Source of the DNA: Hyaloraphidium curvatum SAG 235-1
Lineage: Eukaryota; Fungi; Monoblepharomycota
Length of the DNA stretch: 64,000 nucleotides
Direction of reading: 5' to 3'
Assembly: GCA_025558095.1 (NCBI GenBank)
Contig: JAIVFI010000035.1
Location: 124,001-188,000 of the forward strand
The notes below the pieces were generated by a model. That model was not told the origin of the DNA and searched no databases. It saw only the letters and a list, made by a program, of their open reading frames with translations. Position 1 is the stretch's first letter. Each line of letters starts with the position of its first letter. Shown here piece after piece: positions 1 through 29,168 of this stretch. Made by a program: the position numbers and the translations under genes.

Positions 1-244
1 GTTCATGCGAGGAGTGCCCGGTCCCGTTGTCGTCACTGCGCCCATCAGGCCTCCACCGGAGGCTGCCTGAGACTCTCAATGGAGTTTGGACCGCTGTTGT
101 AACCTGCTGTCAGGAATCGACGCTTTTGTGCAACAATGCAATGACCCGTTGCTGTCCGCGCCCAAACTGCCGCGGCCGTCGCGGTAATCAACGGTCGGAA
201 GGAGGACGTGATCGATGTCGTGAGACTCGTCAGCGTTTTTGCGA

Positions 245-976
245 TCAAAACCTGCGCACCCCCGCTTTGCCGCCTGCGAGCGCTACAACCAAGCCATCGG
301 GCATCCTCGCCGGCACCGTCTCCCACGGACTCGCACCCTCGTCCCACGTCCACACAACCTCCTCGCCGCCCGCTCCCACGTATCCCGCGGGAGGCACTAC
401 CACCCAACCGCCAGCATTCCTCCACTGCACCTCCACCACTTCGCCATCCACCTTGTACCTTCTCGCCGAAGCCTGCATTTTCGCAAGACGCAGATCGTAC
501 TCAAACAGCACCACCCGCCCCTGCGGCCCCGACGCAGTCACCGTCGCCAGACCCCGCACGCCGCCAATCCCGCACTTGGCGAGCAGCGTCTCCAGTCCGC
601 CTTTGTCGTCGCCGCACTCCAACGCCACGACGCCTCCAACGGCGCCCGTCGCAAGCCCCACGGCGTTGTGCTGCGGCAGCACCCGGTGCTCCGCCTCGGG
701 CTTGTGCCAATTCAGCGGGAGAGACACCCTCTCCGCCCCGGTGCGCGCATTCCAACCGATGCACACGGGGAAGGCCATGTAGCCCAGTTCCCTGTACGCG
801 CGAACGGCGTCGGCGACGGTGAGCTGTCCTTCCGACTTGGTGCCGATCGTAAAGCGCCTCTGCACCGGCCCCTTCGCACGATCCGCCGCCGGCAACGCAC
901 TCTCCAGCGCCTGCTCGCCGTCGACGACAGTGTCCGACACGGGCCTGAGTCCTTCGGGGGTTGCCATCAACGACAT
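245..976 (-). CDS. Prim-Pol (bifunctional DNA primase/polymerase N-terminal, AEP-fold) protein, probably catalytically inactive
   Basis: C-terminal part of ORF 245..1666 from ATG 976 (MSLMATPEG). Family-like blocks: AVRAYRELGYMAFPV, NAVGLATGAVGGVVALE, TVTASGPQGRVVLFEY, VQWRNAGGWVVVPP, WTWDEGASPWETVPARMPDGL. Confidence 0.75.
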   Translation of the reverse strand: MSLMATPEGLRPVSDTVVDGEQALESALPAADRAKGPVQRRFTIGTKSEGQLTVADAVRAYRELGYMAFPVCIGWNARTGAERVSLPLNWHKPEAEHRVLPQHNAVGLATGAVGGVVALECGDDKGGLETLLAKCGIGGVRGLATVTASGPQGRVVLFEYDLRLAKMQASARRYKVDGEVVEVQWRNAGGWVVVPPAGYVGAGGEEVVWTWDEGASPWETVPARMPDGLVVALAGGKAGVRRF

Positions 977-1097
977 TTGAACGGAGCTGCGAGGATTCGA
1001 CTTGCGTCCAACAGACGCGCACCCCGTCCATTGGCCACAATCTGTTTTCGCGGCGACCACCCCAGTAGGTGGTGACCACCGGTGCAGATCAATCGCC

Positions 1098-1505
1098 ATG
1101 CACGCCGCAGAGCCACCGTCCACGCCCATCTGCGGCACCGACGCCGCCGACATCACCGACGCGACGAGCGCCTCATCCGCGCTGACTCGCCCGCAAAGGC
1201 GCAGGCGGAACGCCCACCTCCTTTTTGAGACCATCGTCCGGAATCTGGACGTCAGAGACGATGACGTGCTCCTCGTCACCCGATCGGTGGTTCTTGACCA
1301 CATCCGACGTCTCGCTCGCTGGGAGGTCGACAAATACGCCAAATCGGCTGTCCTCATGAAACAGCTCCAGACCGCCGCTGCCCTCATGTACGGAGACACA
1401 CACAGCGTCACCTTGATGAAAGTGAACGGACAAAGCGGCAGTTTGGTCTTGGTCGCGCCTTTGAACGCTGTGCGCGCTGCCGCGACAGTTGAAGCGAGCG
1501 CGTGA
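1098..1505 (+). CDS. hypothetical protein in the virus-like cassette
   Basis: ATG at 1098; intronless 135-aa ORF with globular-looking composition, divergent from the Prim-Pol gene; no recognised motif. Confidence 0.45.
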   Translation: MHAAEPPSTPICGTDAADITDATSASSALTRPQRRRRNAHLLFETIVRNLDVRDDDVLLVTRSVVLDHIRRLARWEVDKYAKSAVLMKQLQTAAALMYGDTHSVTLMKVNGQSGSLVLVAPLNAVRAAATVEASA

Positions 1506-1646
1506 TCAACCGGGCAGCACGCGCCCAACGGCGACGAACGACGTCCAACAGCGCCAACTGCGCTTGTCGCGGGCGACAATGCCTCGTCGCGGCCAGGGCC
1601 TCCATCATTTTCGTTGCATCGTGGATCAACGTGGATTGACGAAAGG

Positions 1647-2366
1647 ATGGGTGCTGCGGTGAGCACTCAGATTTCGGAGACGACAAGCGAGATCCTGACC
1701 AACATCCTGATTCAAAACAGCTCAGAATGCTCTGCTCTTTCGGAACAGCGTGCCCGGATTGAGCTCAAAGCAAAGGGCCCGATCATTTTACCAGGGGGTG
1801 CAAGGATCTCTCAAGACGCCAATGTGAGCCTCCAGTGCGTGTTAGAGTCGACAAACGACGCAAAGATCAGATCGCAACTGGAGTCCAAGTTGCGACAGGC
1901 GGTGAAATCAGAGCTTGAAGGGCTCAACCTCTTCCAAGTCAGTGTTTCCACCAACATTTCGAAGCAGATCGCCCGGGTTGCATCGACGATAGACCTGAAG
2001 GACATCAAAAGGCAAATTGCCGCTTCCATTCAGGAGGCCGAAATCAAGTACGAATCGACAGATGATCGCATTGAAATGAAGGACGCAATCATCGACCAAG
2101 ACGCGACGATCCTTGTCAAGGCGATTTCCAAAACGGTCAACAACACCGAAGCCGTCGGCGAGCTCCAGAATCTGGTTGATCAAGAAACCACACAAAAGCT
2201 GGTCGGAATAATGACCGCAGCCGGGCTCGTCGTCGTCCTTGTCGTGGTCGCAATTGCATACCTCTGGATGAACCGCAAAAGCGACGACGACGATGGCAAG
2301 GGAGTCAAGGAGGACTTCACAGCGAGGCGCTCTCCTTCCAGACCGGCGCTTCGCCGCTGGCGTTGA
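1647..2366 (+). CDS. NCLDV-type myristoylated virion membrane protein (poxvirus L1/F9, iridovirus lipid membrane protein family)
   Basis: Starts MGAAVS (N-myristoylation MGxxxS); Ser/Thr/Gln/Asn-rich body with NSSECSA and SLQCV; single C-terminal TM helix (AAGLVVVLVVVAIAYLW) and charged tail; about 240 aa; no introns. Confidence 0.75.
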   Translation: MGAAVSTQISETTSEILTNILIQNSSECSALSEQRARIELKAKGPIILPGGARISQDANVSLQCVLESTNDAKIRSQLESKLRQAVKSELEGLNLFQVSVSTNISKQIARVASTIDLKDIKRQIAASIQEAEIKYESTDDRIEMKDAIIDQDATILVKAISKTVNNTEAVGELQNLVDQETTQKLVGIMTAAGLVVVLVVVAIAYLWMNRKSDDDDGKGVKEDFTARRSPSRPALRRWR

Positions 2367-3036
2367 GCACGAATGCCCGGCCGCTGGCCACGTGAACAAA
2401 CTGAAACAACCTCTCCGACGTCTGCAACCGCCAGTAGTCCGAAGCAAAGCGCAGCTCATTGGGTCGTTTGTCGTGGTAGTGTTTCGCCCCGCCCCCGATC
2501 AGATGTGTGAACTTGGAATTGCTCAAATAGAAGCGCGATCCGGTCAGCCGTGCCTCCCAAACACATTGCTCTCCGTTCACCCCGATGGCCCACGTGTAAA
2601 ACGCGAAACTGTCGGGATGCTTCGCCAATCCGGTCTTTTCCCCGTCCACAATCCTTGCCTTGACCTCCTGGCTCCCCGGAAGCAGCTCAATCACCTCCCC
2701 GGTGAATCGGTTGACAAACTGGAACTCGTCGCGGTTTGCAATCCACCTCCAGCTGCCAAAGTTGAGCGTGTCGTCTCCGGACGTTTGCAGCGGTCCGGGG
2801 CCCTTGTTGGGGATCCCGCCGTCGCTGTCCTTGTCGTCCACCGGCTCCCCGTCCCCGTCATCGGCGCCCAGCCCGCCCGCCTCCTCATCCTCCTCCTCCT
2901 CCTCTTCTTCCTCTTCCTTCTTGCCCTTCCCCTTTGGCAACGTCAACCACAGCACCACGCCGATGACGCCTCCAACGATCAGCAGCGCCAAAAGCACGAC
3001 GACGGCCATCCCAGCGCCGGTGCTCCCGCGCGCCAT
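2317..3036 (-). CDS. type II membrane protein with acidic linker and three beta-rich repeats (putative virion protein)
   Basis: N-terminal TM ending VLWLTLPKG; poly-Glu tract; repeats LNFGSWRW..FQFVNRFTG / FAFYTWAI..VWEARLTG / LRFASDYWRL..FQFVHVASG. Confidence 0.65.
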   Translation of the reverse strand: MARGSTGAGMAVVVLLALLIVGGVIGVVLWLTLPKGKGKKEEEEEEEEEDEEAGGLGADDGDGEPVDDKDSDGGIPNKGPGPLQTSGDDTLNFGSWRWIANRDEFQFVNRFTGEVIELLPGSQEVKARIVDGEKTGLAKHPDSFAFYTWAIGVNGEQCVWEARLTGSRFYLSNSKFTHLIGGGAKHYHDKRPNELRFASDYWRLQTSERLFQFVHVASGRAFVLNASGEAPVWKESASL

Positions 3037-3058
3037 TGACGATTGAAGCCCCGCACGG

Positions 3059-3070
3059 CGAAAAAACGCG
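3059..3070 (-). promoter_or_regulatory. shared upstream motif CGCGTTTTTTCG, copy 1
   Basis: Exact 12-mer 22 nt upstream of ATG 3036; identical copy at 3739-3750. Confidence 0.45.
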
Positions 3071-3090
3071 ATGACGGTCGCCTGCCGCGT

Positions 3091-3720
3091 TCAGAGCGGT
3101 GGTGCTCGTGGGGGAGGATAGAGGGGCGGCGGTCTTCCCGGTGGTCCGTAGACGCGCCGGGAGGGATCATGGAACTCAATCGTGGTGGCATCGGAACCGA
3201 CCAGGATGGAGCTCTGGTTAATGCCGTTGGCGCCAAAGAAGCCGGTCATTGCAACAGCGAGACCATTCGTGTCCCGGGCGACGTAGACGATGTTCGGCTG
3301 CCAACGCACCCTGTCTCCCACTTCGACGACGTTGAACTGCACTTTTGGAACAAACTGAGGAAAACGGCCCATTTCGACCGACAGCATGTGGTGCGCCCTG
3401 GAGACGGGGAGCCCCAAGGCTGCCTTGGCGACACGGTTCAGGTAGCGGAAAGCGCCGGCCCGGTCGCTAGGGATGTTCTCTTCGAAATACGGCGAGGGCA
3501 GCGGCGGGGGCGGTGCGAGCGAAGGCGGAAACAGAGGTTCGGGCCCGAACGGAGGCAGGAGCTCTTGTCGAATTGGGTACGGGGGCACGACGGCGGGCAA
3601 AGGCCGCTTGTCGCCACCATCGTTCTCCCCTTTCGGCAAGGCCAACCAGACAACAAGGCCGACGACAGCTGCGATGGCCACCGCTCCAATGACGATGAAC
3701 ACGATGGTTCTTTGCTCCAT
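3091..3720 (-). CDS. type II membrane protein, Pro-rich (putative virion protein)
   Basis: N-terminal TM ending VVWLALPKG, similar to the neighbour's; Pro-rich stalk; intronless. Confidence 0.65.
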   Translation of the reverse strand: MEQRTIVFIVIGAVAIAAVVGLVVWLALPKGENDGGDKRPLPAVVPPYPIRQELLPPFGPEPLFPPSLAPPPPLPSPYFEENIPSDRAGAFRYLNRVAKAALGLPVSRAHHMLSVEMGRFPQFVPKVQFNVVEVGDRVRWQPNIVYVARDTNGLAVAMTGFFGANGINQSSILVGSDATTIEFHDPSRRVYGPPGRPPPLYPPPRAPPL

Positions 3721-3738
3721 CGCTTCGGGTCAGGGCGT

Positions 3739-3750
3739 CGAAAAAACGCG
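3739..3750 (-). promoter_or_regulatory. shared upstream motif CGCGTTTTTTCG, copy 2
   Basis: Exact 12-mer 18 nt upstream of ATG 3720. Confidence 0.45.
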
Positions 3751-4174
3751 TCCGACGGAGCGGAGCGCGAACCCGCCCCAACGTGGCTCTCGGTGGGGCG
3801 GACGGTGAAGGCAAACGAACGCGGAGGAGAGGAGAGCGAAGCTCCTTTTGCCGCTTCTGCCATTGTGATGTTTTCTTGTTTGGAGTGCACCATGTTCAGT
3901 GTTACATCGAACCGGCAATCTGGGAAGGTGCCTGGGGTGTTTTGCAAAGTCGGTCGACCGGGACCGGCGTCCCATCCCGAACACTGAAAAGTTGGGGGTG
4001 TCGCGTCGGTTTGTTTACCCGGTCTGCAAGCTTTGCATTTTCGGTCCATGGGGGGTCTCTATCTGCCTGGTCTATGTAACACTGAAAAGTTCTGAAAAAC
4101 AAGTGTTTTGTTGTTGTGAGTGTGCACAGAAGACCGGTGGTGATCGGATCGTCGTCAGATTTCCTTGCCCTCCA

Positions 4175-4888
4175 ATGAGTTCAAAAATGCACGCACTCAA
4201 CACCGCCATCATCGTTGCCGTTCTCCTTCTCCTTGCGTTCCAGCTCTGGCTCGACAAACGCCCCACGCCGCCTCGCACGCCTCCGACCCTGTCTTTCTCG
4301 CTCATGCCTCCTTCCCCCGAGATGCAAGCCACCTGGCGCAGACAGTCGCTCGTCGCCGCTCCCAACTTTCTGCTGACACCCATCTTCCTCAAACTCGCCG
4401 GCGAATGCTTGGCGCTGGTGCAGAGCGCAGCGGCCAAGCGATCCCCGGCCCAAGTCGCCGCTCTGCGCAGCGGCGTCAGCGTGCCGGCGTCGCACCTGCA
4501 AGGCACCCTCGCCGAGGCGCTCTACGCCAGCTGCCAGCTGCGCGACTGGCTGCGCACGGCCACGGGCAACCCGAGGATGGACGTCGTACGCACAGACGAT
4601 CCAACGCGCATGACGCTCATCGCGTACGATCGACCCGGGGATTCGATCGCCTGGCACGTGGACGGGAATCACACCGCCGGCCAGCGCGTGACGATGCTGA
4701 TTTGTCTTGCCAACCGGGGTCGCGAAGGAGGGGTCTCCTGTGGCAAGCTGCAGTACATGCACGCTGATGGGCACCGGAAGACGGTCGACCTGGTGGAAAA
4801 CAGCATGGTGGCCTTTGATTGCAACGCCGTCGAACCACTGGAACCACCCTCACGTCTATCAATCTCACTTTCCTGCGCAGGAAGCTAA
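4175..4888 (+). pseudogene. membrane-anchored 2OG-Fe(II) oxygenase, C-terminally truncated
   Basis: N-terminal hydrophobic anchor; LIAYDRPGDSIAWHVD (HxD); VTMLICL and GKLQY strands. After SMVAFD the distal His and 2OG-binding Arg are not seen. Confidence 0.65.
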
Positions 4889-4899
4889 CCAGCAACGTC

Positions 4900-5680
4900 A
4901 TGGCAAAGGCGTATGATGGAGGTGACGATGGACTGCAGTCTTTCTTTCAGATCAACATCACCGTCAACAACTTCTTCTTCGGGGGATCCGAACCCGAGAG
5001 GCCCCCAGCGACACCCATCGACTTCAGCCTGGTCGACTTTGTGCCCGCCCCTCTGGATTCTATGCGCCTCGACGTTGTGATCGCAAAGTACGACCCGAGT
5101 GCTTGCCTGAACAACCAGCCGGTGCTGGTGAGATATCTGAACAACTATGTTGCACGGTACACCGGGGAGAAGGCGGGAGAAACCTTCTACTACAGACGGA
5201 TGCCCGCTGCCCGCTGGATGCAGCGAACCTGCCGACAGTCGATCGGTGGAGATCTCATGCCGTTTTGGCCACCTGCAGAGTCTGATCGGGACGGCGGTCG
5301 GGACCGGGATGTGGACTTGCTGAACGTCTTTCTTCGAAGCACGGATCGTAGGGAGTTCAAGGAAGTTTGCTACGATCCCAGTCACAAAGGCGACAACGGG
5401 CGGACGCTCAACCTGTTCAGCGGATTGGCCGCGCGCATTCTGCCTAAAGAAAAGGTGGACGAAACGAAGTTCAAGCGCATGAATGATCACTACGAGCAAA
5501 TCATCTGTTCGAATGATAGGACGCTCTCGAATGAACTCTTCAACTGGATGGCCTACATTGTGCAGGAACGGGACAAAACGGGCGTGGCAACTGCTTTCAT
5601 CGGTGCGCCCGGTGCCGGGAAGAACATCGCAGCCGACTTCTTCCGTTTGAAGGTGATCGGAGAAGCAAATTCGCGTGAGG
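4900..5680 (+). pseudogene. D5-like / DUF5906-type primase-helicase fragment, cut just after Walker A
   Basis: RREFKEVCYDP...NLFSGL...DHYEQIICSND...NWMAYIVQ...KTGVATAFIGAPGAGKN. No Walker B follows; the ORF runs into unrelated-looking sequence to 5961. Confidence 0.75.
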
Positions 5681-5998
5681 TGGCTTCCAGACGAGCGCGT
5701 GGATCCGGGGTGCCTTGGGTAGTCCTACAGCAAAATCGATCAACAAGGTGCCGGGTTCTTTGTCGCGTCCGGCGGTCTATGAAGCGTCCATCTTCAATGC
5801 GGCGAAGTCGGCGGCGAGGACTGTCCACGCTTTGCGGTGAAAAATTGATGTTCAATCGGATGGTGCGACGTGCCGGCAGCGCGACACGTGGCCCTCTCGA
5901 AAGACACCGTTCTCATATGGTTATGCGTACTCCCAGGTGCATGTCGGCGAGTCGTGCTTGAGACGTGTTGCGTCGGTACAGGCCGAGCCCGACGCTCA

Positions 5999-6550
5999 TC
6001 AGCGAGCGGTTCGCCGAAACGCCTCACGCTGGGTACCAAACTCCCGGCTGCTATTGTCGGAGGCGACTTCGGATGCACTGTTCGCACTGCCTAAACTGGG
6101 CAGAGCGCACTGCGCGGGTCTGGGTCCAACCGAGGACCTCGTAGACACTCGGGGGGACTTCGTGACCTGTATCCCGGAGCCTTGGCTCTCGCAGTCTTCG
6201 GAGGAGTCCCCATCTGAATCATCTAAGGCGTAGAGCGCCGAGTACGCCTCAGAGCAGGGCCTGCACAACGCGCCGCGGGCGACGCCATGCACGCACATGG
6301 CTACGCCGTGACCGCCACGGTGCGGCTGAGGAAACATGTCTGCAAGGGGTGTGCGGCCAACATCAGCACCGTTGTTGCTGCGGGGGGGCAGAGATTGCGA
6401 GGCGAGCACGCGGAAGTCCTCTACGGCCTGGCGAGAGCCTGTGGCCGGGAGGGAAAGTACGGCTGCAAGGGCGGCCGCTCGGGGTTCGGCGTGCTGAGGC
6501 GCCGGTAGCGTCAGTTGGCGCTCAGACGAATCAAGGCGAGAAATCGACAT
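5999..6550 (-). CDS. small CxH-x7-CxxC + acidic-tail protein, copy 1 (divergent)
   Basis: FRVLASQSLPPRSNNGADVGRT...CVHGVARGALCRPC...LDDSDGD aligns with 7051..7530 and 10744..11142. Confidence 0.6.
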   Translation of the reverse strand: MSISRLDSSERQLTLPAPQHAEPRAAALAAVLSLPATGSRQAVEDFRVLASQSLPPRSNNGADVGRTPLADMFPQPHRGGHGVAMCVHGVARGALCRPCSEAYSALYALDDSDGDSSEDCESQGSGIQVTKSPRVSTRSSVGPRPAQCALPSLGSANSASEVASDNSSREFGTQREAFRRTAR

Positions 6551-7050
6551 GGCTTCTGTCTCCGGAAAGTGGATCCGGTGGCGAGAGGTCGGAGTGGCTT
6601 ACCAAGATCGAAATTTAGCCGCCCCATAGCGAGAACCCCGGGAACGCTTGCTGTGGAATGGCGTTGGGGCATGCGATTCGGGAATCATGAGGCTAGACTC
6701 AAGGTTGCCACGGGAATACGTTCGACGAGTCCGATTTTGTGTTTGCTAGAACCAGCCGGCAACCGGCCTTCAGCTGGCCTAGACCGGCCTACGCCTGGAA
6801 GCCTGAGGTGCCTCCTTCAGTGCAAGGGACGTCAGGCGGGCCTGTCTGTTTTCCCCGGACTGTGCTACCGTGGTTTATCCCGCCATTTGCATGCAAATGG
6901 CGCGACCGGCGCTGCCTTCGATGTGTTCCCGGTGAAGAGTGCATTGGGTGTCCCGCCTGAAACTCAAAAACGATTCCCGCCTTCCCCTTTGGGGGCTCAC
7001 TCGCTAAATCCCACAACGCAACGCAAAAACTAGAATCGTGGGCCTCCAGC

Positions 7051-7530
7051 ATGTTGCCCGATGCGCAAACTCTCTACCCCGCGGGGCACCACGACACCGC
7101 CGCATCCGCGCGGTCCGCGCCGCTGGCGTCTATCCTCTCCTGCCGAACCGTGCCTGCGTACGCCGATCCCTCCTTCCACACACTTGCCTGCGCTTCGGTG
7201 CCAGCACTGCGCCGCAATGGCACCGACGTGCTGCGGACGCTCTTTGCTACTGCGTTACCCGACGCGCACCGCCCCGACGCGCGGCCTTGCCCGCACGGCG
7301 TTGCCGGCAGGCGGGAGATCTGCGCGGACTGTCACGCCGCGTACGCCGCGGACATTTGCGACTCGGACTGCGAGGACGACGTCTCCCCACTCGTACGCCA
7401 CTCGGGTGACCCGCATTCGGAGTCGGAGTCGTCGAAGGCTGTGCCCCACATTGATGAAAAGCGGCATTGTACGGGGCGAAGTGCGACGGCGCTGAGTGCT
7501 GATCCTTGCTGTAGATCGATTCGACCGTGA
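7051..7530 (+). CDS. small CxH-x8-CxxC + acidic-tail protein, copy 2
   Basis: FHTLACASVPALRRNGTDVLRTLFATALPDAHRPDARPCPHGVAGRREICADCH...DICDSDCEDD. Confidence 0.65.
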   Translation: MLPDAQTLYPAGHHDTAASARSAPLASILSCRTVPAYADPSFHTLACASVPALRRNGTDVLRTLFATALPDAHRPDARPCPHGVAGRREICADCHAAYAADICDSDCEDDVSPLVRHSGDPHSESESSKAVPHIDEKRHCTGRSATALSADPCCRSIRP

Positions 7531-7715
7531 GGAAACGTCGAATCTACGTGTCGTTTCGCCGCCGTCTATCATTGCCATTGCTTCCAATGCCATCGGGTCC
7601 TGGTCCGTTCTGCCTCACCGTGCCGGACTCGGAGTCTGACTTGAAGGTCCTCACAAACGCCGGTCCGGATTGGCAGACAGATGCCGTTTCTTAGCGAACT
7701 GTATCCGATGGGTTC

Positions 7716-10136
7716 GTGGGAAGGCGGAAGTGGCGCAGGCAGACCCTTCCAGCCGGATTCCGAAGGCAAGCCCCTCGACAGCCGCAGGTCTGTCTGCTTG
7801 ATTGCCTCGCAAACCGGACGGAGGCGCCCATTGTGACATGGCAAGTGCGGACGCTGTCGCGCCTGTGCCGGGCCCGCAGCATGTGCCGTCGTCGGCCTGG
7901 CGAGTGCCACCATCGTTCACGCCCCCCTGAGCTTCCTCTGAACTAAGCCGGTAGCGTGTCATGCTGGAAGGACCGCAAGAAGTGCCTCTTCCCGCCGGGT
8001 GCCATGGCATGCGAGCGGTGTCAGAAGCTGCAGCGCGCGTGCGAGCGGCGGCAAGCGCGGCGCACAAGGGCCGGGTCGGCCCCTGTCTTGCCGTCGAGCG
8101 GTTTGGAGTCGGATAGCCCGGAAAGCGACTCGGACCTGCCGCATGTGCTGTTGCTCAAGACAGATAACAGGACCCGGCTACCAAAGGAGGTGCGGGACAG
8201 GGCCCTGCGCGACTCTGGTGGGCTCGCTGGTGATTTCCAAGTGTATCTCTCCCATTCCCCTCGCCTAACCTGCTCCTGTTCCCGGTTCAACCCCGCTCCG
8301 AACTAACGACCACTTCCTCCCTGGGTCCAGCCTCCGCGAACCTTGGTTTGGCCACCTTTTGGGAGGACTTGCACCCGACCATCCCCATTGTGCACAAAAC
8401 GACTTTCGAAGCTGCCCTGGGTTCCCCATCGTGCCCTATCTACCGTCAACCCCCGCAGGCCTTAGCCTTTGCCATGGCAGCGTGTGGCATTCTGTACTGC
8501 CACACGCTGCCCAATGACGACCGCATTGTGCGCTCGGCCTCGCTCAGTGACGCCGCCTACACCCTCGTCTCTTCGTCCTACGACCCGGCCACCCCTGCTT
8601 CGGGCATAACGGACCTAGAAGCCGCGCAGGTTTTTGTCCTACTGGTGCATGCTCTGGCGCCACGCGGGGACGCGTGCGACACTGGGGCTCTGTTACGCAA
8701 GGCGGTAGCAGCCGCGGAGAGGATGTTGCCCCAGCCCCTGCACGGCACGCTGAGGTTCGCGCACCTGTCGTTGCCGACAGGGGCTGCGGAGTGGGTGCAG
8801 GCCGAGATGATGCTGCGGACGTACATACTCGTAGCTTCGTTGGACGTGTTGGTGGACTGACTTCCGCGGCTGGCGGCGAACGGGTGTCCTGACGGTCCGT
8901 ACCGTCAATGCAGATCCTTGGCCCTTCAAGCGCACCGCTGCCCGCACGCGACGTACTTTGGCGACAGCTATATACCCCTCCCGCACCACGACTCGCTCTT
9001 CGACCACCCTGATCGGCAGCTCGCTCACTCTTGTCTCACTCTCCCCCCGGCCGCTGTTCGCCCCGCGTCTTTCCTACTAGACCCCCGGCCCGAGGCGTGT
9101 CCTGCACTGGTTCTACAGTTCGTAGGCCCAGCTCTCTCTCGCCGCGCATCACACCTTGCCCTCCGGATGCTCGCGACTTTTGTTGGCGTGCTCTGCGCCC
9201 GTACGACAGGATTTGCGCGTGCGCAGGGGCTTGATCCGTTGCACGTGGCAGCACTGCCCGACGACAAGCGTCACGCGGACGAGCGGACGCTCGCTGCCCA
9301 TATCGCCCTCCTCACTGCCCTCGGCCGATCGATCCCGGCGTCATTCCCACGGCTGTACGCCTTCGCGCTGGAGCGCGGCGACGCATCGCCGTTCCTAGCT
9401 GATGCTCAGCTTCACTTTTCTCACCCCGCTCACGCGGCCGGGTTTCTCGCCTCGGTGGCGTGCGCGGCAACGGGATGCATGCACGCTGTCCTGGTGGGGT
9501 GCCGCCCCGAGTCACACACCGACCCGCACCTCTGGACCGCACCGGAGTTCACCGCCATCCTTGCCGATGCCGCGTTATTCATGCGCATGCTGCGTTCTAC
9601 AGGAGGAAATGGTTTTGGCTGCGACGCAGTGCCACACGTCGTGCGGGCCGGCGCGCTGGCGTTGGCAGGAAGGAAGCTGCTGGTGCGGGCAGGCAGTGCG
9701 GAAGGGGATCCGGGACATTTCGTGGCGGATATCAGGACGGCTGAAGAGTTCCTGAAGATGTGGGGCTCCAGATATGGTGGTCTCGGTGGGTAGCATGCCG
9801 TTGCTACATGGAACTGCGCGGTTTGACACCCCTAAAGCCCGCCTGGTGGCCGACGATTTCCACGCCGCCGCTAGCGAGCTCCTTCACACAGTGCCCCCAT
9901 CCTCCTTTCCCCCTGCCTTTCCGCGCTCCCCATACACAATGTTACCTAACCCCGCCGCCTCAGTCTCTCCTAGATTGGGCCTCTCCGCTTCCAGCATCGT
10001 CTCAGTGCAAGAGGAGGCCCAGTATCCAATGGGCCTCCGCACGGCGTTGGTGCAGTGGGACGACGCGAAACAGGCGCAGAGCTTCCTGGACGTGCAGGCG
10101 GCAGCGGACAGATTGCTCGCAGCATGGGCGTGTTGA
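7716..10136 (+). CDS. Zn2Cys6 transcription factor with fungal TF middle-homology region, copy A (spliced; start uncertain)
   Basis: C-VSCWKDRKKCLFPPGAMACERCQKLQRAC after removing intron 7841-7954; FWEDLHPTIPIVHKTTF; LAFAMAACG; MLRTYILVASLD; paralogous to copy B throughout. Confidence 0.8.
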
Positions 10137-10743
10137 ATCACAGACCCAGCTGAGCGTCCTGCTGCTCCTCTGCGATGGCTGCGGCAAGCGAGGCGTCGCG
10201 TGCGACTGGCCCCCGCCAGCAATTGCCGGCCCCGGATCCGCGGGTGCAAGCGTAACCCCGAGCTTTAGCGCGTCGCCGATGCTCACCGCGCCGCCCTTCG
10301 TCAATTCCATCTCGCTACGCAACGCAGGTCGCCCTTGCAATCGGTGGTCGTCACGCGGGTGCTTGAAGACCGACCCGAGAATAGAGTCTATGGATCCAGC
10401 CGGGCTTTTGCAATTGAAACCATCCCGCCTGTTGTCTTACAAAGCAAGCAGGATCAGAGATCGGTCGGGCCCAGAAGGGCCTAGGCGGCGGGAATTGAAC
10501 CACCGGCCCAGGCCCTGGCCGCAGCTCCTACTAAGAACGCCTCTGGCGCCGGACCAACTTTCGCGGGGATCATCGGTCAGTCCGGAATCCGCTTCCCAAT
10601 GAAGGGCATGTTGGCTCTGGTCTTTGAGGGATGCGCGACAGAGATTGCAAAGGGCGACATCCGATCGCCCAAGTGTGTGGTTTCCGTTTTGCCGCTTCAC
10701 TCCCCGGTGCACCCAACCCGCAGAAACCGAAGGATCGAAACAA

Positions 10744-11142
10744 ATGCGGGACGCCGGACCGGCAGCGGAAGCAGCCCCCACGTCGGCTCCAGTCGTCGCA
10801 ACCCATTCTCCCGAGCGCCCTTCCGCCTTCACGGTAGCGTCCCTCCCGACCTTCCGCGCCTCGCCGCCGGCCGTGCAGCCTTCATTCCACGCCCTGGCGA
10901 GCACCACACTACCGCCGTTCCGCCGCAACGGTACGGACGTTCTGCGGACGTTCTTCGCCGACGCGCTGCCGGATGCGCACCGCCCGGACGCCGCGCCATG
11001 CCCCCATGGTGTTACGGGCAAAAGGCAGATTTGCCCCGCCTGTCACCTCACCTTCGCTACGGACATATGGATTGACTCGGACGTCGAAGACGACGCTTTG
11101 CTATCCTGCTCAGGAGATCTGCGTTCGAACAGCTGCCTTTGA
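10744..11142 (+). CDS. small CxH-x8-CxxC + acidic-tail protein, copy 3
   Basis: FHALASTTLPPFRRNGTDVLRTFFADALPDAHRPDAAPCPHGVTGKRQICPACH...DIWIDSDVEDD. Confidence 0.65.
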   Translation: MRDAGPAAEAAPTSAPVVATHSPERPSAFTVASLPTFRASPPAVQPSFHALASTTLPPFRRNGTDVLRTFFADALPDAHRPDAAPCPHGVTGKRQICPACHLTFATDIWIDSDVEDDALLSCSGDLRSNSCL

Positions 11143-11455
11143 AGGCGCCGTTCAGAAACCTGGAACGAAGAATAGGGCCGCTGTACTCCAATCACTCTTC
11201 TCGGGGCTTTAACCTGCGCCCCACACGATTATTGTTGGGAGGAAAGGAAGAAGGAGGAAGCGAAGCAAACACCAGGGCAGCATAGACTAGTTGTAAATCC
11301 GCGGCCGACCTCCTCACAGAGTCATGTGCTTCGTCATTCATTGACACACGAGATGTTCGTGCCTACCTTTTGAGATTCGTGGAGCAACCTCAGTATGACG
11401 GGCCACTTTGATAGTGTTTCCAAGGCTGCGCATCCGGTATCAAGGTAGGGTTGTC

Positions 11456-13652
11456 ATGCGCCACCCAAAACCGCCCGACATGAGCGACGCACACTCAACA
11501 AAGCTGTCCGGCTCGCCCAGGGCTACGTCGTCAGCCTGGTCCGTACCGCCAGCGTTCCCGTCCCGTCTTTCTCTGAACGGTTGTGGCAGCATCTCATGTC
11601 GGAAACACCGCAAGAAGTGCGTGTTTATCGCGGGCGCGACCAAGTGCGCACGGTGTCAGACGCTGCAGCGCCGTTGCGAGCTGCGAAAGCACGCGCAGGA
11701 TTCAAAGGACCATGGACACCAGGCAATGTCTTCGACGGAGTCGGCCGAGTTGGAGGACAAGGTCGCTGGCGGTCCGGTGCCACCGCTTGCCGCGCTACAC
11801 ACGCAGGATGAGCCGCTTAGCGCCCCGGGTGACGAGCTTGCCGGTAGGACTACTGCCTTGCTGACGGGCCTCCATCCCTTTAATCTCCGCGCTGCAATTT
11901 GAATCGACTACACTCGCTGCGACTCAGTCTCCATGGATATCGGCCTCGCCACCTTCTGGGAGAGACTGCACCCGACGATCCCCATCGTGCACAGGACAAC
12001 ATTCAACGCCGCCATGGCCTCCTCAACCTGCCCCATCTACCACCAACGACCGCGGGCCCTCGCCTTTGCCATGGCCTCCTGCGGTATCCTTTACTGCTCC
12101 GCGTTACCAAGCGACGACCGCGTTTTGCGCTCTACGGCACTCAGCGACGCAGCCTCCGATGTCATCGCCTCCGCCTACGACCGGGCGGCCCCGATCTCGG
12201 GCATGACGAACCTTGAAGCCGCGCAGGCTGCGGCCTTGCTGGTGCAAGCACTAGCGCCACAAGGCCATGCGCACCGCGCAGGGCTCCTGCTACGCACCGC
12301 AGTGGGAGCGGTAGAGCGCATGTTGCCGCGGCATTCGTGGGGTACGCCCAGGTTCGCGCACTTGGCAACTTCAACGGGGACCGTCGAGTGGGTGGAACAT
12401 GAAATGACACTTCGGACCTACATCCTCGTGGCTTCGCTTGACGTGTCGGTAGACCCATTGTTCCTAGATGGGGCTGTTGCATTGCTGACGTTCCCGCAGG
12501 TCCTTCTCAATTCAGGCGCACCGCCATTCATACGCGACGTACTTCGACACTGGCTATATGCCCCTCCCGCGACACGACTCTCTCTTCGACCAACCCGACC
12601 CCCTCTACAGGTGTACCATCCCACCCCTTCCTCCGGCATTCGTCGACCCAGCCCCTCTTCTACGTAAGCCCCGGCCAGAGACGTTCACTGCGCTCATCGC
12701 CCAGTTCGTGGGCCCGGCCCTTTCTTATCGCGCGTCACACTTTGCACTACGACTGCTCACAGTGCTTTGCAGTGTGCTCTGCGCCCAATTGACAGGTTTT
12801 GCACGTTCAAATGGGGTCGATCCGCTGCGCGCTGTCGCGCTACCCGACAGTGACCGCGACACACACGAGAGCGCGTTCGCCTCCCATGCTGCTCTCCTGG
12901 TAGCCCTCGGCAGAGCAATTGCATCCACCTTTCCCGATTCTTACGGGACCGCGCTTGCCCGTGGCGACGCAACGACCTTCCTTGCCGATGAGGGCCGGTA
13001 CTTTTCTCACCACGCGCACGCGACCGCCTTCCTTGCCTCTGCGGCTGGCGCGGCGGCGGGAAGCATGAACACGCTCCTAGTGGGATGCGACCGCGCCTCG
13101 GGCACCGACCAGCGGCTCTGGACAGCCCCGGTGTTCGCTTCCATTCTCGCCGACGCCGCGCTGTTCATGCGTACACTGCGGTCGGCAGGAGGCGAACTCT
13201 TCGGGCTTTTCGACTTGGTGCCACACGTCGTGCGGGCCGGGGCGTTGGCGCTAGCGGGCAGGAGGCTGGTATGGGGAGCATGTGACAGAGCAGGTCAGGC
13301 GGACAACAGTGATCCAGGCGATTTCGTGGCCGACATCAGGACAGCGGAGGGGTTTTTGGAAGCTTCGGCGGTGAGCCACGGTGGCGTTGGTGAATGACTC
13401 GTAGCCGTGACTTGGGCGAGCATGCTGACTGTCCTTCCTCCAGCTCGCCTGGTGGCCGACGAATTCCGCGCCGCCGCTAATGAGCTCCTTCGGCTGCAGT
13501 CCTCAAACTCTGCGAGCACATTTGATGAAGTCGAACCACTGCCACTAGGTATTCGCTTGGCGCTGGCACGGTGGGACGATGCGAAGCAGGGGCAGAGCTT
13601 CCTGGAGGTGCAGGCGGCTGCAGATTGGTTGCTCTTCGCGTGGGCTTGTTGA
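11456..13652 (+). CDS. Zn2Cys6 transcription factor with fungal TF middle-homology region, copy B (spliced)
   Basis: C-ISCRKHRKKCVFIAGATKCARCQTLQRRC after intron 11539-11589; FWERLHPTIPIVHRTTF; ends WDDAKQGQSFLEVQAAADWLLFAWAC like copy A. Confidence 0.8.
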
Positions 13653-13691
13653 ACTACGGGGGGCCAACCCGTCCTGGACCTCAAATTGGAA

Positions 13692-13900
13692 GCGGCCTTG
13701 CCTCATGAGCCGCCTACTCGGGCTCCGGACCTTGAAGCCACTCGCCGACCAGCGCGGTCACACGAGACTCGCAGGATGAGACCTGCGCGGAGTGTCACAA
13801 CGCCTATGCCGCCGACATTTGCATCGACTCGGACGGCGAGGACGACGCTCTGCTGCCAGTAGCCGCCACGGGCGACCTGCAATCGGACACTTCTGCTTCG
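13692..13900 (+). pseudogene. 3' remnant of the small CxH-CxxC gene, copy 4
   Basis: Encodes ETCAECHNAYAADICIDSDGEDDALL; the 5' part is missing or disrupted. Confidence 0.6.
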
Positions 13901-14015
13901 TCCAGGGGTTCTTCCAACCAGGCCCCACGGTGATAAATGACAGGGGATGGGTGGGCGGACTCCAACACGCCGGAGAAAGACGCCTTGACAGGAAGACAAG
14001 AATAGATTGAATAGA

Positions 14016-16451
14016 TTACCAGAAGGCCCTCAAATTGGGCAGGTTCCCTTGCTCCCCCATATTAATCATGTCCACCAGGGTAAGCGACGGCCGGCGCTCA
14101 GTGGATGCTGCCTCCAGCTCCGGATCGAAAGGCGCAAGCTGCGACCGCGCAGGGTACTGTTCCTTGCTATAGGTCAGCTCCACGGTGACGACGGGATCAA
14201 ACGTGACGCGCTTGTGGCGTACATCCCCCTCCCCCTTGTCCGTCAGCCTCATCTGCCTCGTATCGTCCGGCAGCCGCGCCAAGGGGTCGGGATCGTCCTC
14301 CTCCACCATTCCCGTCCCAGACTCCGAAGCCGTTGCAGTGCCCGAGTCGCTCGCTGTGGTGCAGATCCAGCAGTGCCCGCTATCGGCCACGTTGCCATGC
14401 GGGCACCGCTGTGCCATCTTGCGCGCAAGCTTCAGCATTTCCAAGTCTGCCAGGGAAAGGCGGCATTCCTCCCCGCTCACGAGGGCACGCAGAAGTACGC
14501 GAACGGCCTGGTGAGATTCACCGCCGCAGACTTCAATATACCGAAGGCAGTCCTCGACATCGCGGACGAGCGACGAGTGCACCTCGGCCGCGCGGGCAAG
14601 ATCTGCGGGGGAAGCGCCCGCGAGAAGCTCGCGGAAGCGGCCTAAAACGAGTATGTGCACCCAGGCCGCCTGGGTGGCCGAATAGAGAAGACCAGCGTTG
14701 AGGATGTTGGCGCTTAACTCCTCGGGGGTGCATGCGGCGACAAAAGCGCGGACGATGGAGGCGATGCTTGTGGCGGTGGCCGAGGCCGAGGAGAAAGCTC
14801 GGGAGCCCAGCCAGAGGTCGAACTCGAACCTTGACGACAAATGCGATGTGGCGTTCTCCTGCACGCTGATTGCCGAGTGGGCGACGTCTGTGCTGGGTTC
14901 CGGTATGATGACGCTCATGCCGCTGGTCCGGCCGACGCACACAAAGCCAAAGATCAGCATTACGGCGCCCCTGGGCAGATGAGGGAATTCGATGCACAGC
15001 TCGCCGAGGTCGCCTCTGTTGATGGCCGCGGCGACTTTGGGCGGCAGCGCAGCGTCGATTGCACAGACTGCCTCAACGATGAATGCCTGTCTGCGCTTCG
15101 CCTCTTCAAGGTTCGGGTTGCGCATTACGCGGGTGTTGAAGTCGTCCGACATGACGTCGCGCGCGATCGTGCCGGCTTGAATTCCGTCGGCGATGATCAG
15201 GTCGATGGGCGTAAGATCACATTCATCTTTGAGCCACCAACGGAAAGCGGTGCTCTTCGACCCCATGTAGAGCATGAGAGTGCCGAGGAAAATCATGCTG
15301 TTTTCGCGGATGCCCGTGACGAATCGTTGCAATACAGGTACACGTTCTGCCGGGTCCGGGAGCGGTTGGGCTGTGGCGTCAAAGCCACGGAAGAACTGTG
15401 CGCACGTCAGGGGGGCGGCCTTCGCCAGGAGCCAGTTGGGCAAGGCCGAGGCGCGCCGACGGTCTTGCGGCGGGCCTAGTGCGATTATCCACTCCACAGG
15501 CGCGGGCATGGGTGCGTTCGGGAAGTCAAGGTGCGGCTCAACGGATGGGATCCCGTCCATCTGCATAGCGAGCCAGCTGTCTAGCATGCTGGCGTTCCAG
15601 CAGGCGCTGATGAACACCTGATCCAACGTCCATTGGTCCTGGTCCACCGTCGAGGCTGACGCCGGGATCCCTGTGCGGCGGTAGATGTTGAATATCTGCC
15701 GCAGATACGAGCGGGCCACTGGAACTCTGGCCATCATCAAGTCGGCAAAATTGGCCGCCACGAACAATGAGTCGACGATTGCGGTGGTGCGTATGGTTCG
15801 CACGTCCTCGCCCCGGTCAGCGCGCAGCCAGAAATCACGCAGGGAACTGCGCAGCGTACGGTCGTACTGTGCCTCCAGCTTGTCTGCCAGCTCGCCGAGA
15901 GAGATATCCGGATGGTACGATGCGTCTGCCGGATCGGCGCCCCGCAGGAGTGGGCCCCGGGTGCCAATCCACTCTACGGCGGCAGTCCAAATCGAGGAGG
16001 CGTACAACTGCGCGAAGCGCGGGTCGACGTGGGCGGAAGAACCTCCCAGTCGTCCCCCGATGGCGGCCACCACGGTGCGCGGGTGCGCCGTGATGCCGGC
16101 GGGCATCGCGGCAAACACAAATTCAACCGCGCGGACAAGTCTAGACGACGTCAAATGGACGTCTTCACCGACGCCCGCGACTACCGGCGGTAGCGAGAGG
16201 TCCCGGTCACGCGGCCGACCCCGCGACCGTGCCCGCGACCGCGCCCGTTCCGCCGCGCGTTGGTCGCCATGACTACACGTGCCCGGGCTCGCCAGCTCCT
16301 GGAAACCGCGGTAGTGCCCCTCCGGCGGCGCGGCCCCGTCCATCAGAAAGCCGAGGTGGTTTCCGGACCAGCGCATCCGGACCCTCCAGGTCGGATTATC
16401 CCCATCCCTAATACGGCCAACCCGAAAGGCCCATGGAAGTCCGGAAAGCAC
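14016..16451 (-). CDS. fungal TF MHR-like protein with C-terminal CxH-x8-CxxC knuckle and RVxF motif (start uncertain)
   Basis: About 800-aa open frame; ISACWNASMLDSWLAMQMDGIP...DFPNAPMP resembles the MHR W...D...G.P...lP block; CPHGNVADSGHCWIC; KRVTFDPVVTVELTYSKEQY. Confidence 0.6.
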   Translation of the reverse strand: MLSGLPWAFRVGRIRDGDNPTWRVRMRWSGNHLGFLMDGAAPPEGHYRGFQELASPGTCSHGDQRAAERARSRARSRGRPRDRDLSLPPVVAGVGEDVHLTSSRLVRAVEFVFAAMPAGITAHPRTVVAAIGGRLGGSSAHVDPRFAQLYASSIWTAAVEWIGTRGPLLRGADPADASYHPDISLGELADKLEAQYDRTLRSSLRDFWLRADRGEDVRTIRTTAIVDSLFVAANFADLMMARVPVARSYLRQIFNIYRRTGIPASASTVDQDQWTLDQVFISACWNASMLDSWLAMQMDGIPSVEPHLDFPNAPMPAPVEWIIALGPPQDRRRASALPNWLLAKAAPLTCAQFFRGFDATAQPLPDPAERVPVLQRFVTGIRENSMIFLGTLMLYMGSKSTAFRWWLKDECDLTPIDLIIADGIQAGTIARDVMSDDFNTRVMRNPNLEEAKRRQAFIVEAVCAIDAALPPKVAAAINRGDLGELCIEFPHLPRGAVMLIFGFVCVGRTSGMSVIIPEPSTDVAHSAISVQENATSHLSSRFEFDLWLGSRAFSSASATATSIASIVRAFVAACTPEELSANILNAGLLYSATQAAWVHILVLGRFRELLAGASPADLARAAEVHSSLVRDVEDCLRYIEVCGGESHQAVRVLLRALVSGEECRLSLADLEMLKLARKMAQRCPHGNVADSGHCWICTTASDSGTATASESGTGMVEEDDPDPLARLPDDTRQMRLTDKGEGDVRHKRVTFDPVVTVELTYSKEQYPARSQLAPFDPELEAASTERRPSLTLVDMINMGEQGNLPNLRAFW

Positions 16452-16752
16452 AGATGTGCCGATAGTCTATCTGAGTGAGGACAATGCTGCGCTGGGAGAT
16501 GCCGGAAACAACATGGTACACGCGCGAGACGTGCGCCGGCGCCCCATCGGCTTTCGTATGCGCAAACACCGAGTACTGGAGCAACTGTCGAGACCACAGG
16601 CGGATTCGAGGTCGCTCTTTCCAAACGGCTCGTCGGTGACACCTTCTTCCCAGGTGGGTAGCCACAATCAACAGTATCGCCTTCGCAGTGCACAGGCTGG
16701 GGGTTCCTATGGTAGCCTCCCACGGCGCAATCGGGTACGGCGGGAGGGGAAG

Positions 16753-17438
16753 CTACACTATCTGCTGGTGGATTACAGCTGCGTTGGCCTGCCGGCGGGG
16801 TCGGGGTGGCTGTCGCGGCGTAAGAGTACCGCCGGGGCAGTACTCCATGACCTTGGTAAAGGGCGACCTTGTTTCAAAGCACTCAAAGAGGCGAACCAGA
16901 TGTGGGTGTCCAGCGTGCGAGCGCACGGCCGCGAAGAGGGCCCGCATATAGCGCTCCATGACGTCCACGGACTCAAGCGAGAACTGGAGGTTGCCGCCGG
17001 CGAGGTGCAGGCTGGCCTGTGGTGCTTTAGGGCGCGCCTTGAAGATAGATTTGACGGCGACGCATTCTCCCCACGGGCTGACACACAGCCGCACGGTGCC
17101 CTCTGCGCCAGCGCCGAGCACGTGGATGTCCCTGAACTCCTTTTTGCAGATTTCGGCGCGTTTTTTGGTGCGGGGAGCGGTAGCCAATGGTGGGATGTTT
17201 GCGCCTTCAGCGTGGGCAACCAGCCAGGGACAAGTCGCACCTTGCGCCTCCGTCGCCCGTGCTCGTAAACTCTATCCCGCTGATCAGGCGATAGCGAAAC
17301 GCCGTTTGCCGCCGTGACCGACCCGCGGCCCCCGAGGCCGGTGGGCACGGACCCCCGCCGCCCCGGCTGGGGAAGCTCCCCGTCGCCGGGCGCGCGATCG
17401 TTGTTGTCCGCGCCTCCGTTAATCGCGCAGAGCGCCAT
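16753..17438 (-). pseudogene. truncated Ser/Thr kinase (N-lobe only), paralogue of 17812..19131
   Basis: LGAGAEGTV, VAVK, HPHLVRLFECFET, VMEYCPGGTL, then similarity stops; no HRD or DFG. Confidence 0.75.
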
Positions 17439-17811
17439 GTCATCGCCGTGTCAGCGGCATTCCGTTTCTGTGTGAAGGGCCTTTCAACTGGGTCCAGACC
17501 ATCAGTCCAGAATTGTCTATCAGAGGGTTCAACCGCGGTCTGCAGACCCTGCCTGGGTTGCGATCTGCACGCTGGCCGGCGATTTCCATCAGTTCCAAGA
17601 AAGGCTCGTGGACATGTAAATGCCATGAACTGTAGGCAACAGGCCGCGGAAATGGTGGCCGTACGGCTTGAGCCAGTCCCCTGGAATACCTGCGGCTTCT
17701 GGCAGGAAGGGGTATCCTGCCTCCCAACTCCAACTAGCGCAGGGACGCCGCATGTCGGTGGAATGGCAACGATGCCGTGCACGATGAAGAGCCGGCGATG
17801 AAGGGACCGCA

Positions 17812-19131: not shown

Positions 19132-19228
19132 GCGCATGGTTTTGCAACTTCGGCCTTGCCTTGTCAGAGCACATCTCCGGCTTTTGCTGCAACCTGACAT
19201 GTATGCGGCGTGAAGGACGATTCGCGCT

Positions 19229-19927: not shown

Positions 19928-20052
19928 CATGGACTGTGTGTGGGTCACCCGGCCCTATCAAAGACACACACGCGCGCCCGAGTGCTGTCACCAAACCACA
20001 GTGAGAACAACATCCGCGTCGTCGGTACACTCGGCGCCTGACGGTGAACTAG

Positions 20053-29121: not shown

Positions 29122-29168
29122 CCTGCTCTGACACGTACCTGCTACCCCTGGAAGCCCGCCCGCGACAG

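What the first reader, a model, noticed from the sequence alone, without database searches (positions are those of the whole stretch)
245..5680. Compact endogenous large-DNA-virus cassette (entry protein, membrane proteins, Prim-Pol, D5-like helicase) in a fungal chromosome
Seen: seven packed intronless ORFs in 5.5 kb; the structural-looking genes are intact while the two rightmost are truncated. Known: L1/F9-type myristoylated proteins are Nucleocytoviricota virion entry proteins, and D5-like helicases and Prim-Pols are replication genes of DNA viruses and related elements. Inference: this is the eroded right edge of an integrated virus. The actinobacterial/phage-style Prim-Pol with a DUF5906-type helicase next to an L1/F9 gene may mark a poorly described fungal virus lineage.
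Basis: partly seen in the sequence, partly recalled or inferred. Interest (0 to 1): 0.85.

Follow-up and report, generated by a model that had tools for sequence, protein, structure and literature searches.

The report
Transcribed giant-virus remnant in a fungus
Seven tightly packed genes in a fungal chromosome are likely the broken end of an integrated large DNA virus: one encodes a relative of the membrane protein that such viruses use to build particles and enter cells, the helicase gene beside it is cut off mid-domain, and the intact membrane-protein genes likely still make RNA, which is unusual for such remnants.

Summary
Largely confirmed. Seven ORFs fill 85% of 245-5680. ORF 1647-2366 belongs to the F9/L1 (NCVOG0211) virion membrane family by transitive evidence: no direct Pfam hit, but 168 relatives whose profile hits iridovirus VP88 (E 7e-34), and its model matches virion proteins of large DNA viruses. 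It sits in a supported clade of unnamed, mostly metagenomic proteins with two cysteines only. ORF 4900- is an NrS-1/DUF5906-type helicase cut just after Walker A (about 5670). Corrections: the Prim-Pol (about 976-245, minus) is a marginal, stand-alone domain whose three catalytic motifs are replaced; the 2OG-Fe gene is not clearly truncated; composition equals the host's. New: one run, RNA by its spliced host introns and low repeat depth, holds 626-4067 as one unspliced contig, and a second contig bridges the junction, so misassembly is unlikely. Four ORFs share an upstream TTTTCG motif (weak). Integrated giant viruses in early-diverging fungi are published (Mycodnaviridae). Lineage, size and left end remain unknown: no genome is held and no capsid, ATPase or polymerase gene was found among the ORFs scanned. 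New member of a known kind.

The parts
245..976 (-). Stand-alone Prim-Pol (PF09250) domain protein, predicted catalytically inactive; likely start near 976 although the frame is open from 1387
   Evidence: PF09250 24.1 bits against cut-off 22.8 for 248-850, 22.7 for the whole frame; DxD, His and D/E motifs kept in 11 of 11 viral-contig and phage homologues, read ECG, V, Q here; codon score
1098..1505 (+). 135-aa ORF without known family; coding-like; TTTTCG 48 nt upstream
   Evidence: inside the X1 contig 626-4067
1647..2366 (+). F9/L1-family (NCVOG0211; VP88, pE248R, L1 relatives) virion membrane protein, 239 aa: MGAAVS myristoylation motif, two cysteines (C28, C64), C-terminal transmembrane helix from about residue 185
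   Evidence: 168 relatives; their profile hits SGIV VP88 E 6.7e-34; BFVD fold matches; VIA top hit 8hif_y4 Z 7.6, rmsd 3.2, 112 aligned; clade 97/95; hydropathy
2317..3036 (-). 239-aa protein with N-terminal transmembrane anchor, acidic linker and an unassigned C-terminal domain; overlaps the L1 gene's 3' end by 50 nt
   Evidence: single-sequence fold unusable, pLDDT 37.5; in NCBI as a singleton cluster
3091..3720 (-). 209-aa protein with N-terminal transmembrane anchor and proline-rich parts; shares the anchor end WLxLPKG with 2317-3036
3059..3070 (-). CGCGTTTTTTCG, 22 nt before the 3036 start; candidate promoter motif
   Evidence: exact match only here and at 3739-3750 in 64 kb
3739..3750 (-). 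CGCGTTTTTTCG, 18 nt before the 3720 start; candidate promoter motif
   Evidence: chance of a shared 12-mer among 7 upstream regions 12 of 3000 (shuffled) to 77 of 3000 (random window stretches)
3980..4091 (+). Two exact copies of a 14-mer (3980-3993, 4078-4091) in the gap between the divergent gene groups; the X1 contig ends at 4067
   Evidence: meaning untested
4175..4888 (+). 2OG-Fe(II) dioxygenase-like protein with an N-terminal hydrophobic stretch; HxD at residue 161 and RxS near 227, no His seen at the expected third ligand position (by eye)
   Evidence: PF23169 E 4e-5 and PF13640 E 2e-4, both below cut-off; residue positions
4900..5670 (+). NrS-1/DUF5906-type superfamily 3 helicase, 5' part only: collar region and Walker A, no Walker B or motif C, no primase domain in front
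   Evidence: NrS-1 6k9e E 2.9e-4; 42 phage records; profile E 1.2e-18; alignment; codon signal falls at about 5660
5660..5680 (.). Right break of the viral block; not a natural terminus (falls inside the helicase domain)
   Evidence: bridged by X1 contig 5405-7898
626..4067 (.). Stretch held as one unspliced contig in run X1 (likely RNA; strand unknown)
5999..14000 (.). Host flank: two tandem, spliced fungal transcription-factor-like genes (period about 3.6 kb) and an inverted partial copy at 5999-6550

Best explanation
The block 245-5670 is likely the surviving right-hand part of an integrated Nucleocytoviricota-related virus in an early-diverging fungus: its helicase gene is cut after Walker A, its Prim-Pol lacks the catalytic motifs, and its intact F9/L1-family and membrane-protein genes are likely still transcribed. 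Inferred history: a provirus entered the chromosome; a later rearrangement removed everything right of about 5670 and left the helicase stub against a locally duplicated host transcription-factor region. Inferred function of the parts in the source virus: the 239-aa protein would be myristoylated on Gly2, anchored by its C-terminal helix in the virion inner membrane, and serve in membrane recruitment during assembly (as VP88) or fusion during entry (as pE248R and L1); the two N-anchored proteins would be companion virion membrane proteins expressed with it from a shared late-type motif; the helicase would have unwound the viral genome; the Prim-Pol would have kept at most a DNA-binding role. 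This part cannot replicate on its own. The RNA most likely comes from host polymerase II, by read-through or from the viral motif.
For: Shown: family identity by profile and fold; in the three fetched loci that carry a relative, one lies beside a major capsid protein and VLTF3 (L002) and one is a GVMAG contig (L001); a 90% cluster-mate of clade member P0005 lies on a 146,636-nt contig; no match in prokaryote genomes or phages; gene packing 85%; helicase break; junction bridged with 265 nt on the viral side by a contig that is also spliced in the host part; X1 shows 7 skips in 1-14000, 6 of them GT..AG, and its depth on the LINE repeat is about 4 times that on the cassette against about 2000 times in X2, so genomic DNA cannot account for the cassette contig. 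From papers: F9/L1 is widespread in Nucleocytoviricota, rare outside, mostly late-expressed and in virions (PMC10100723); VP88 is an inner-membrane anchor (PMC10090177); capsid genes occur in 2 Monoblephidomycota genomes (PMC13533422).
Against: No direct PF02442 hit, only 4 of 100 aligned relatives hit it and 0 of the 8 clade members; Foldseek against PDB gave nothing at E<=0.001 and the VIA score ties with an unrelated helical protein; the cysteine pair said to be conserved between helices 4 and 5 is missing. No capsid, packaging ATPase, PolB, integrase or A16/G9/J5 family hit among the ORFs scanned. GC, GC3 and CpG match the host, so there is no compositional sign of a recent insertion. The best helicase relative among 26 rows is a contig with a virophage- or polinton-like gene set (L009). 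The Prim-Pol call is marginal (6.9 bits against an 11-sequence profile). The RNA evidence is one run, contigs only, no strand, its RNA status inferred, and it covers nearly everything from 5405 to 24093 including gaps between genes; the run was found with this very stretch.
Confidence: 0.72

Rival explanations
1. The block comes from a small (15-75 kb) eukaryotic DNA virus or element with a virophage-, polinton- or mriyavirus-like replication module that also carries an F9/L1 membrane gene.
For: Best helicase match is L009 (42% over 76 aa), a 14.4-kb contig with PriCT_2 plus DUF5906, a serine recombinase, a phospholipase A2-like gene and an ATPase. DUF5906 helicases typify mavirus-related elements of protists and fungi (PMC13215967). 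Inactivated primase domains typify mriyaviruses (PMC11253617). F9/L1 occurs in the 70-74 kb Mininucleoviridae.
Against: The helicase tree gives no supported group for the window's protein. A clade relative of the L1 protein lies on a 146.6-kb contig. F9/L1 did not appear in the passages read on mriyaviruses or polinton-like viruses. Here Prim-Pol and helicase are separate and point apart.
Confidence: 0.13
2. A small island of virus-derived genes that the fungus has kept and uses: the membrane proteins act at host membranes (fusion or interference with incoming virus) while the replication genes decay.
For: The four non-enzyme ORFs are intact, share an upstream motif and lie in the RNA contig, whereas all three enzymes look disabled; codon use and GC match the host; positions 1-245 show no clear coding frame. 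Published Allomyces proviruses are almost silent except at their flanks.
Against: No cellular orthologue seen: of 20 of the 150 listed relatives looked up, none carried a eukaryote's name. Flank expression is exactly what the Allomyces data show, and this is a flank. RNA cover is near-continuous in this region.
Confidence: 0.1
3. Assembly artefact or a co-sequenced virus joined to a host contig.
For: No long read was seen; X2 contigs are short and none shown bridges 5670; the left end is not visible.
Against: A separately assembled X1 contig runs 5405-7898 without a difference and is spliced further on; both runs, from two studies, hold the stretch; X2 depth is alike on both sides (about 3-4 against 1-5; a weak sign only).
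Confidence: 0.05

Closest known systems
F9/L1 family (NCVOG0211, PF02442): SGIV VP88 (PDB 8hif_y4), ASFV pE248R, vaccinia L1
   Same: MG myristoylation motif, about 185-aa ectodomain of helices with two strand pairs, C-terminal membrane helix; profile E 6.7e-34 to VP88, E 1.4-2.1 to L1/M1R; fold matches
   Different: One predicted disulfide only (C28-C64), as in 8 of 8 clade members; short form without VP88's crown domain; at most 34% identical to any relative; no direct Pfam hit; no A16/G9/J5 partner seen in the window
Mycodnaviridae proviruses of zoosporic fungi (PMC13533422)
   Same: Integrated, gene-dense viral DNA in an early-diverging fungus; D5-like helicase named among their genes; capsid genes reported in two Monoblephidomycota genomes
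   Different: None of their marker genes is in this window, so membership is open; their text mentions no myristoylated protein; their proviruses are mostly silent, have terminal repeats and reach 350 kb; composition here equals the host's
NrS-1 polymerase-helicase and phage Prim-Pol-PriCT-DUF5906 proteins
   Same: Helicase collar and Walker A region; Prim-Pol fold residues
   Different: Here the two domains are separate genes 4 kb apart on opposite strands, the Prim-Pol lacks its catalytic motifs and the helicase stops after Walker A
Mriyaviricetes and mavirus-related elements (PMC11253617, PMC13215967)
   Same: Superfamily 3 helicase of phage-like type; disabled primase domain
   Different: Their primase is fused to the helicase; HUH endonuclease, pPolB, RVE integrase and their capsids are not seen here; F9/L1 not noted for them in the passages read

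Membership tests
F9/L1 (NCVOG0211) | N-terminal MG myristoylation motif | tested here: met
   MGAAVS; M1 and G2 nearly invariant in 100 aligned sequences
F9/L1 (NCVOG0211) | Sequence similarity to named members | tested here: met
   Profile of 100 sequences hits VP88 E 6.7e-34; 4 of 100 members hit PF02442, best 1e-17; the protein alone does not
F9/L1 (NCVOG0211) | Helix-strand-strand-helices-strand-strand-helix ectodomain and C-terminal membrane helix | tested here: met
   Model pLDDT 72 with that order; 12 BFVD matches at E<=0.001, the named ones all from large DNA viruses; hydropathy 2.93 at residue 185
F9/L1 (NCVOG0211) | Cysteine pair linking helices 4 and 5 (described as conserved, PMC10100723) | tested here: not met
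   Only C28 and C64, also in 8 of 8 clade members; 53 of 142 other relatives also have only two cysteines in the first 180 aa
F9/L1 (NCVOG0211) | Co-occurrence with A16/G9/J5 | not testable with these tools
   No such hit among the 7 ORFs; DNA left of the window not held
Nucleocytoviricota provirus / Mycodnaviridae | Major capsid protein, A32 ATPase, PolB, VLTF3 and tree placement | not testable with these tools
   None among 13 plus 25 window ORFs scanned; no genome
Nucleocytoviricota provirus / Mycodnaviridae | Physical join to host chromosome | tested here: met
   Contig 5405-8229 bridges the break and is spliced in the host part
Nucleocytoviricota provirus / Mycodnaviridae | GC or intron density different from host | tested here: inconclusive
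   No intron in 626-4067 against 7 skips in 7.9-13.4 kb; GC, GC3, CpG within host range
Nucleocytoviricota provirus / Mycodnaviridae | Terminal inverted repeats, integrase | tested here: inconclusive
   No long repeat touches 245-5680, but the right end is lost and the left end unseen
Active Prim-Pol (PF09250) | Catalytic motifs DxD, His, D/E | tested here: not met
   Kept in 11 of 11 homologues, replaced in the window; alignment is at low identity
Complete SF3 / DUF5906 helicase | Walker A, Walker B, motif C | tested here: not met
   Walker A at residues 235-241; nothing further in any frame; the fragment itself has no PF19263 hit
Mriyaviricetes / polinton-like / mavirus-related elements | Own capsid and ATPase, HUH or pPolB, RVE or recombinase, 15-45 kb with terminal repeats | not testable with these tools
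   None in the window; left flank not held

The most novel reading that the evidence does not exclude
The block is the edge of an undescribed lineage of fungal DNA viruses, distinct from Mycodnaviridae, that pairs a one-disulfide F9/L1 membrane protein with a virophage- or phage-type helicase and a disabled Prim-Pol, and whose virion membrane genes are still expressed from their own late-type promoter in the host, as a leaky provirus or as co-opted membrane genes.
Probability: 0.25. Interest if true: 0.8.

Novelty: new member of a known kind. Interest (0 to 1): 0.5.

Why it matters
F9/L1 proteins are tied to viruses of animals and amoebae and are absent from isolated algal giant viruses (PMC10100723); a copy in a cultured fungus gives a host to an otherwise anonymous metagenomic clade and hints that a fungal virus used the same membrane machinery. 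If the RNA is sense and translated, it would be a rare case of giant-virus structural genes expressed in a fungus, testable in culture. If not, it is one more eroded provirus of a kind already reported.

Tried and rejected
Word-index protein searches found no relative of the L1 protein, only the window's own gene model for the helicase and only P0006 for the 5-sequence profile. Locus searches with single proteins found no relative for L1, no usable locus for the Prim-Pol and one tailed-phage contig for the helicase; two wider alignments were too divergent to search with. L001-L003 are outside the window's clade, so no neighbourhood of a close relative was seen. The protein atlas gave no answer for three proteins. 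The fold of 2317-2850 was unusable and not searched. PHROGs and NCBIfam gave nothing useful. PDB sequence searches with the Prim-Pol and 2OG ORFs found no credible relative; a 5-row Prim-Pol profile that includes the window reached pRN1 ORF904 at E 0.033 only. No listed run is on record as RNA. X1 has no contig over 1-625 and 4068-5404; a hole in contigs proves nothing, so silence of the 2OG and helicase genes is not claimed. TTTTCG is not enriched in the window (28 found, 30 expected), the motif was picked after seeing the data, and the two genes with the 12-mer may share it by duplication of their 5' ends. The frame 245-1387 as a whole, the frame 5671-5961 and the fused model P0001 were rejected as genes on codon score and domain content. 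An HNH-like string read by eye at about 84-240 (minus) was not supported by codon score and not followed. No complex was predicted, as no binding is claimed. Earlier scan notes held nothing.
Full report
Scope. No genome is held for this window, so nothing left of position 1 could be read. A database label names the source as Hyaloraphidium curvatum on a 551,499-nt contig; that it is a monoblepharid, early-diverging fungus is recalled, not looked up.

Observation. Seven ORFs lie in 245-5680. Under a codon model trained on 11 host ORFs of the window, all 7 score positive (0.13 to 0.25), 5 of 5 overlapping alternative frames score negative, and coding cover is 85%. The frame 245-1387 is coding-like only to about 976. 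GC, GC3 and CpG lie in the host range. Right of about 6000 the DNA is host: two tandem, spliced transcription-factor-like genes (PF04082 at 11933; period about 3.6 kb), an inverted partial copy at 5999-6550, then kinases, LINE and copia elements and housekeeping genes (14 of 25 ORFs scanned had a Pfam hit, none a viral structural family).

The membrane protein 1647-2366. Alone it has no Pfam, PHROG or credible PDB hit. A full HMMER search found 168 relatives at E<=0.001, best 33% identical. I aligned the window protein with 99 of the 150 listed, leaving out mainly the long and partial ones: 4 of 100 rows match PF02442, and the profile hits iridovirus VP88 at E 6.7e-34 and vaccinia L1 and mpox M1R weakly over the same span (E 1.4 to 2.1). 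The model (pLDDT 72) has the family's order of helices and strands (as described in PMC10100723); 12 BFVD matches pass E 0.001, and pE248R and L1R follow just below. Against PDB, Foldseek had no match at E<=0.001, with L1-family chains at ranks 2-4; VIA put VP88 first (Z 7.6, rmsd 3.2, 112 aligned), tied in Z with an unrelated dynamin. In a FastTree of 154 rows and an IQ-TREE of 43 chosen rows the protein falls in the same 9-row clade (99; 97/95), flagged for odd composition in the second. All 8 clade-mates are unnamed or 'hypothetical', from ENA, Logan, JGI or NCBI, and have two cysteines in the first 180 aa. One 90% cluster-mate is on a 146,636-nt contig. Three loci with more distant relatives were fetched: L002 carries a major capsid protein and VLTF3, L001 is a GVMAG contig. 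No relative was found in prokaryote genomes or phages.

The enzymes. The helicase matches NrS-1 (E 2.9e-4), 42 phage records and a 4-protein profile (E 1.2e-18). Homology ends at about residue 254-257, after Walker A, and the codon signal drops at the same place; none of the other 1533 stop-to-stop segments of the window matched. The best of 26 relatives is L009 (42% over 76 aa), whose genes (PriCT_2, DUF5906, serine recombinase, phospholipase A2-like, ATPase) look virophage- or polinton-like by recall; the tree does not support that pairing. The Prim-Pol passes the Pfam cut-off narrowly (24.1 against 22.8); DxD, His and D/E are kept in 11 of 11 homologues and read ECG, V and Q here, so it is predicted inactive. 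Loss of all three motifs in an open frame suggests the change is older than the insertion (inference). The 2OG-Fe ORF matches two families below cut-off and spans the profile to its end; no third His ligand is seen by eye.

Runs. Two runs hold the stretch. In X1 one contig covers 626-4067 with no gap or difference, and another covers 5405-7898 and 7954-8229, bridging the break. X1 is unlabelled; it skips 7 stretches in host genes of 1-14000, 6 with GT..AG ends. On the LINE repeat its depth is 864 against 222 on the cassette, while X2 has 8136 against about 4, so DNA carry-over cannot explain the cassette contig. Limits: contigs give no strand, start or level; X1 covers nearly all of 5405-24093, gaps between genes included; the run was found with this stretch; it may be the same strain as the assembly.

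Motif. CGCGTTTTTTCG occurs exactly twice in 64 kb, about 20 nt before the two N-anchored membrane genes. TTTTCG lies within 60 nt upstream of 4 of 7 cassette genes, the four non-enzymes, and of 1 of 19 host starts; nulls gave 27 and 72 of 3000. It was chosen after the fact and the two genes share their 5' ends, so this is a lead only.

Mechanism. Shown: gene content, breaks, join to host DNA. Likely: transcription of 626-4067. Inferred: integration of a Nucleocytoviricota-related provirus, loss of its right part through the helicase, host polymerase II transcription of the edge, and a role of the 239-aa protein at the virion inner membrane. Confidence 0.72; small virus or element 0.13; co-opted island 0.10; artefact 0.05.

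Literature, and what I saw. PMC13533422: abstract, part 1 of 2 of Results, section 8, Discussion, supplement legends, passages; 6 of 10 supplements, Table S1 among them, were pictures or unreadable, and they may list this organism. PMC12247965: passages and one supplement. PMC10100723: abstract, sections 5, 8, 9, passages. Passages only: PMC11253617, PMC10090177, PMC10640383, PMC13215967, PMC9611036, bioRxiv 2025.04.19.649669 and 2026.06.19.733378; bioRxiv supplements are closed. PMC7017919: term search, no hit. Ten library searches showed no description of this locus; that is no proof of absence.

Verdict. A real, integrated viral remnant of a published kind, with an unusual gene mix, an unnamed F9/L1 clade and likely RNA from its structural genes. 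New member of a known kind; interest 0.5.

Noticed in passing
window 6878-6905 and 5999-7530: A 28-nt near-perfect palindrome lies between the host ORF 7051-7530 and its inverted partial copy 5999-6550, right beside the viral break; it may mark the rearrangement that cut the helicase.
   Followed up: partly
window 24470-36170: Nest of a LINE-type retroelement in several 99% identical inverted pieces with a copia-type element inside; very deep in run X2, about 2000 times single-copy DNA in one bin.
   Followed up: partly
window 21078-22445 (+): 455-aa intronless ORF with lower GC (54%) and no Pfam or NCBIfam hit, inside an unspliced X1 contig 20053-24093; origin unexplained.
   Followed up: partly
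window 6240-6420, 7280-7425, 10990-11130, about 13770-13900: A short cysteine motif (CPHG..C..C followed by acidic residues) recurs four times, at the ends of otherwise different host ORFs including 14016-16376.
   Followed up: no
window 4175-5790: The public gene model P0001 joins the 2OG-Fe ORF and the helicase stub into one 484-aa protein through predicted introns; the L1-family ORF was not found in the protein collection as an exact sequence.
   Followed up: yes
L009 483-7861: Small-virus-like contig (primase-helicase, serine recombinase, phospholipase A2-like gene, ATPase) filed in IMG/VR; no capsid gene recognised in the 8.1 of 14.4 kb fetched.
   Followed up: partly
window 37149-37705 and 48268-48825; 56723-56776 and 62825-62878: Further inverted repeat pairs, 91-97% complementary, likely non-autonomous transposons.
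   Followed up: no
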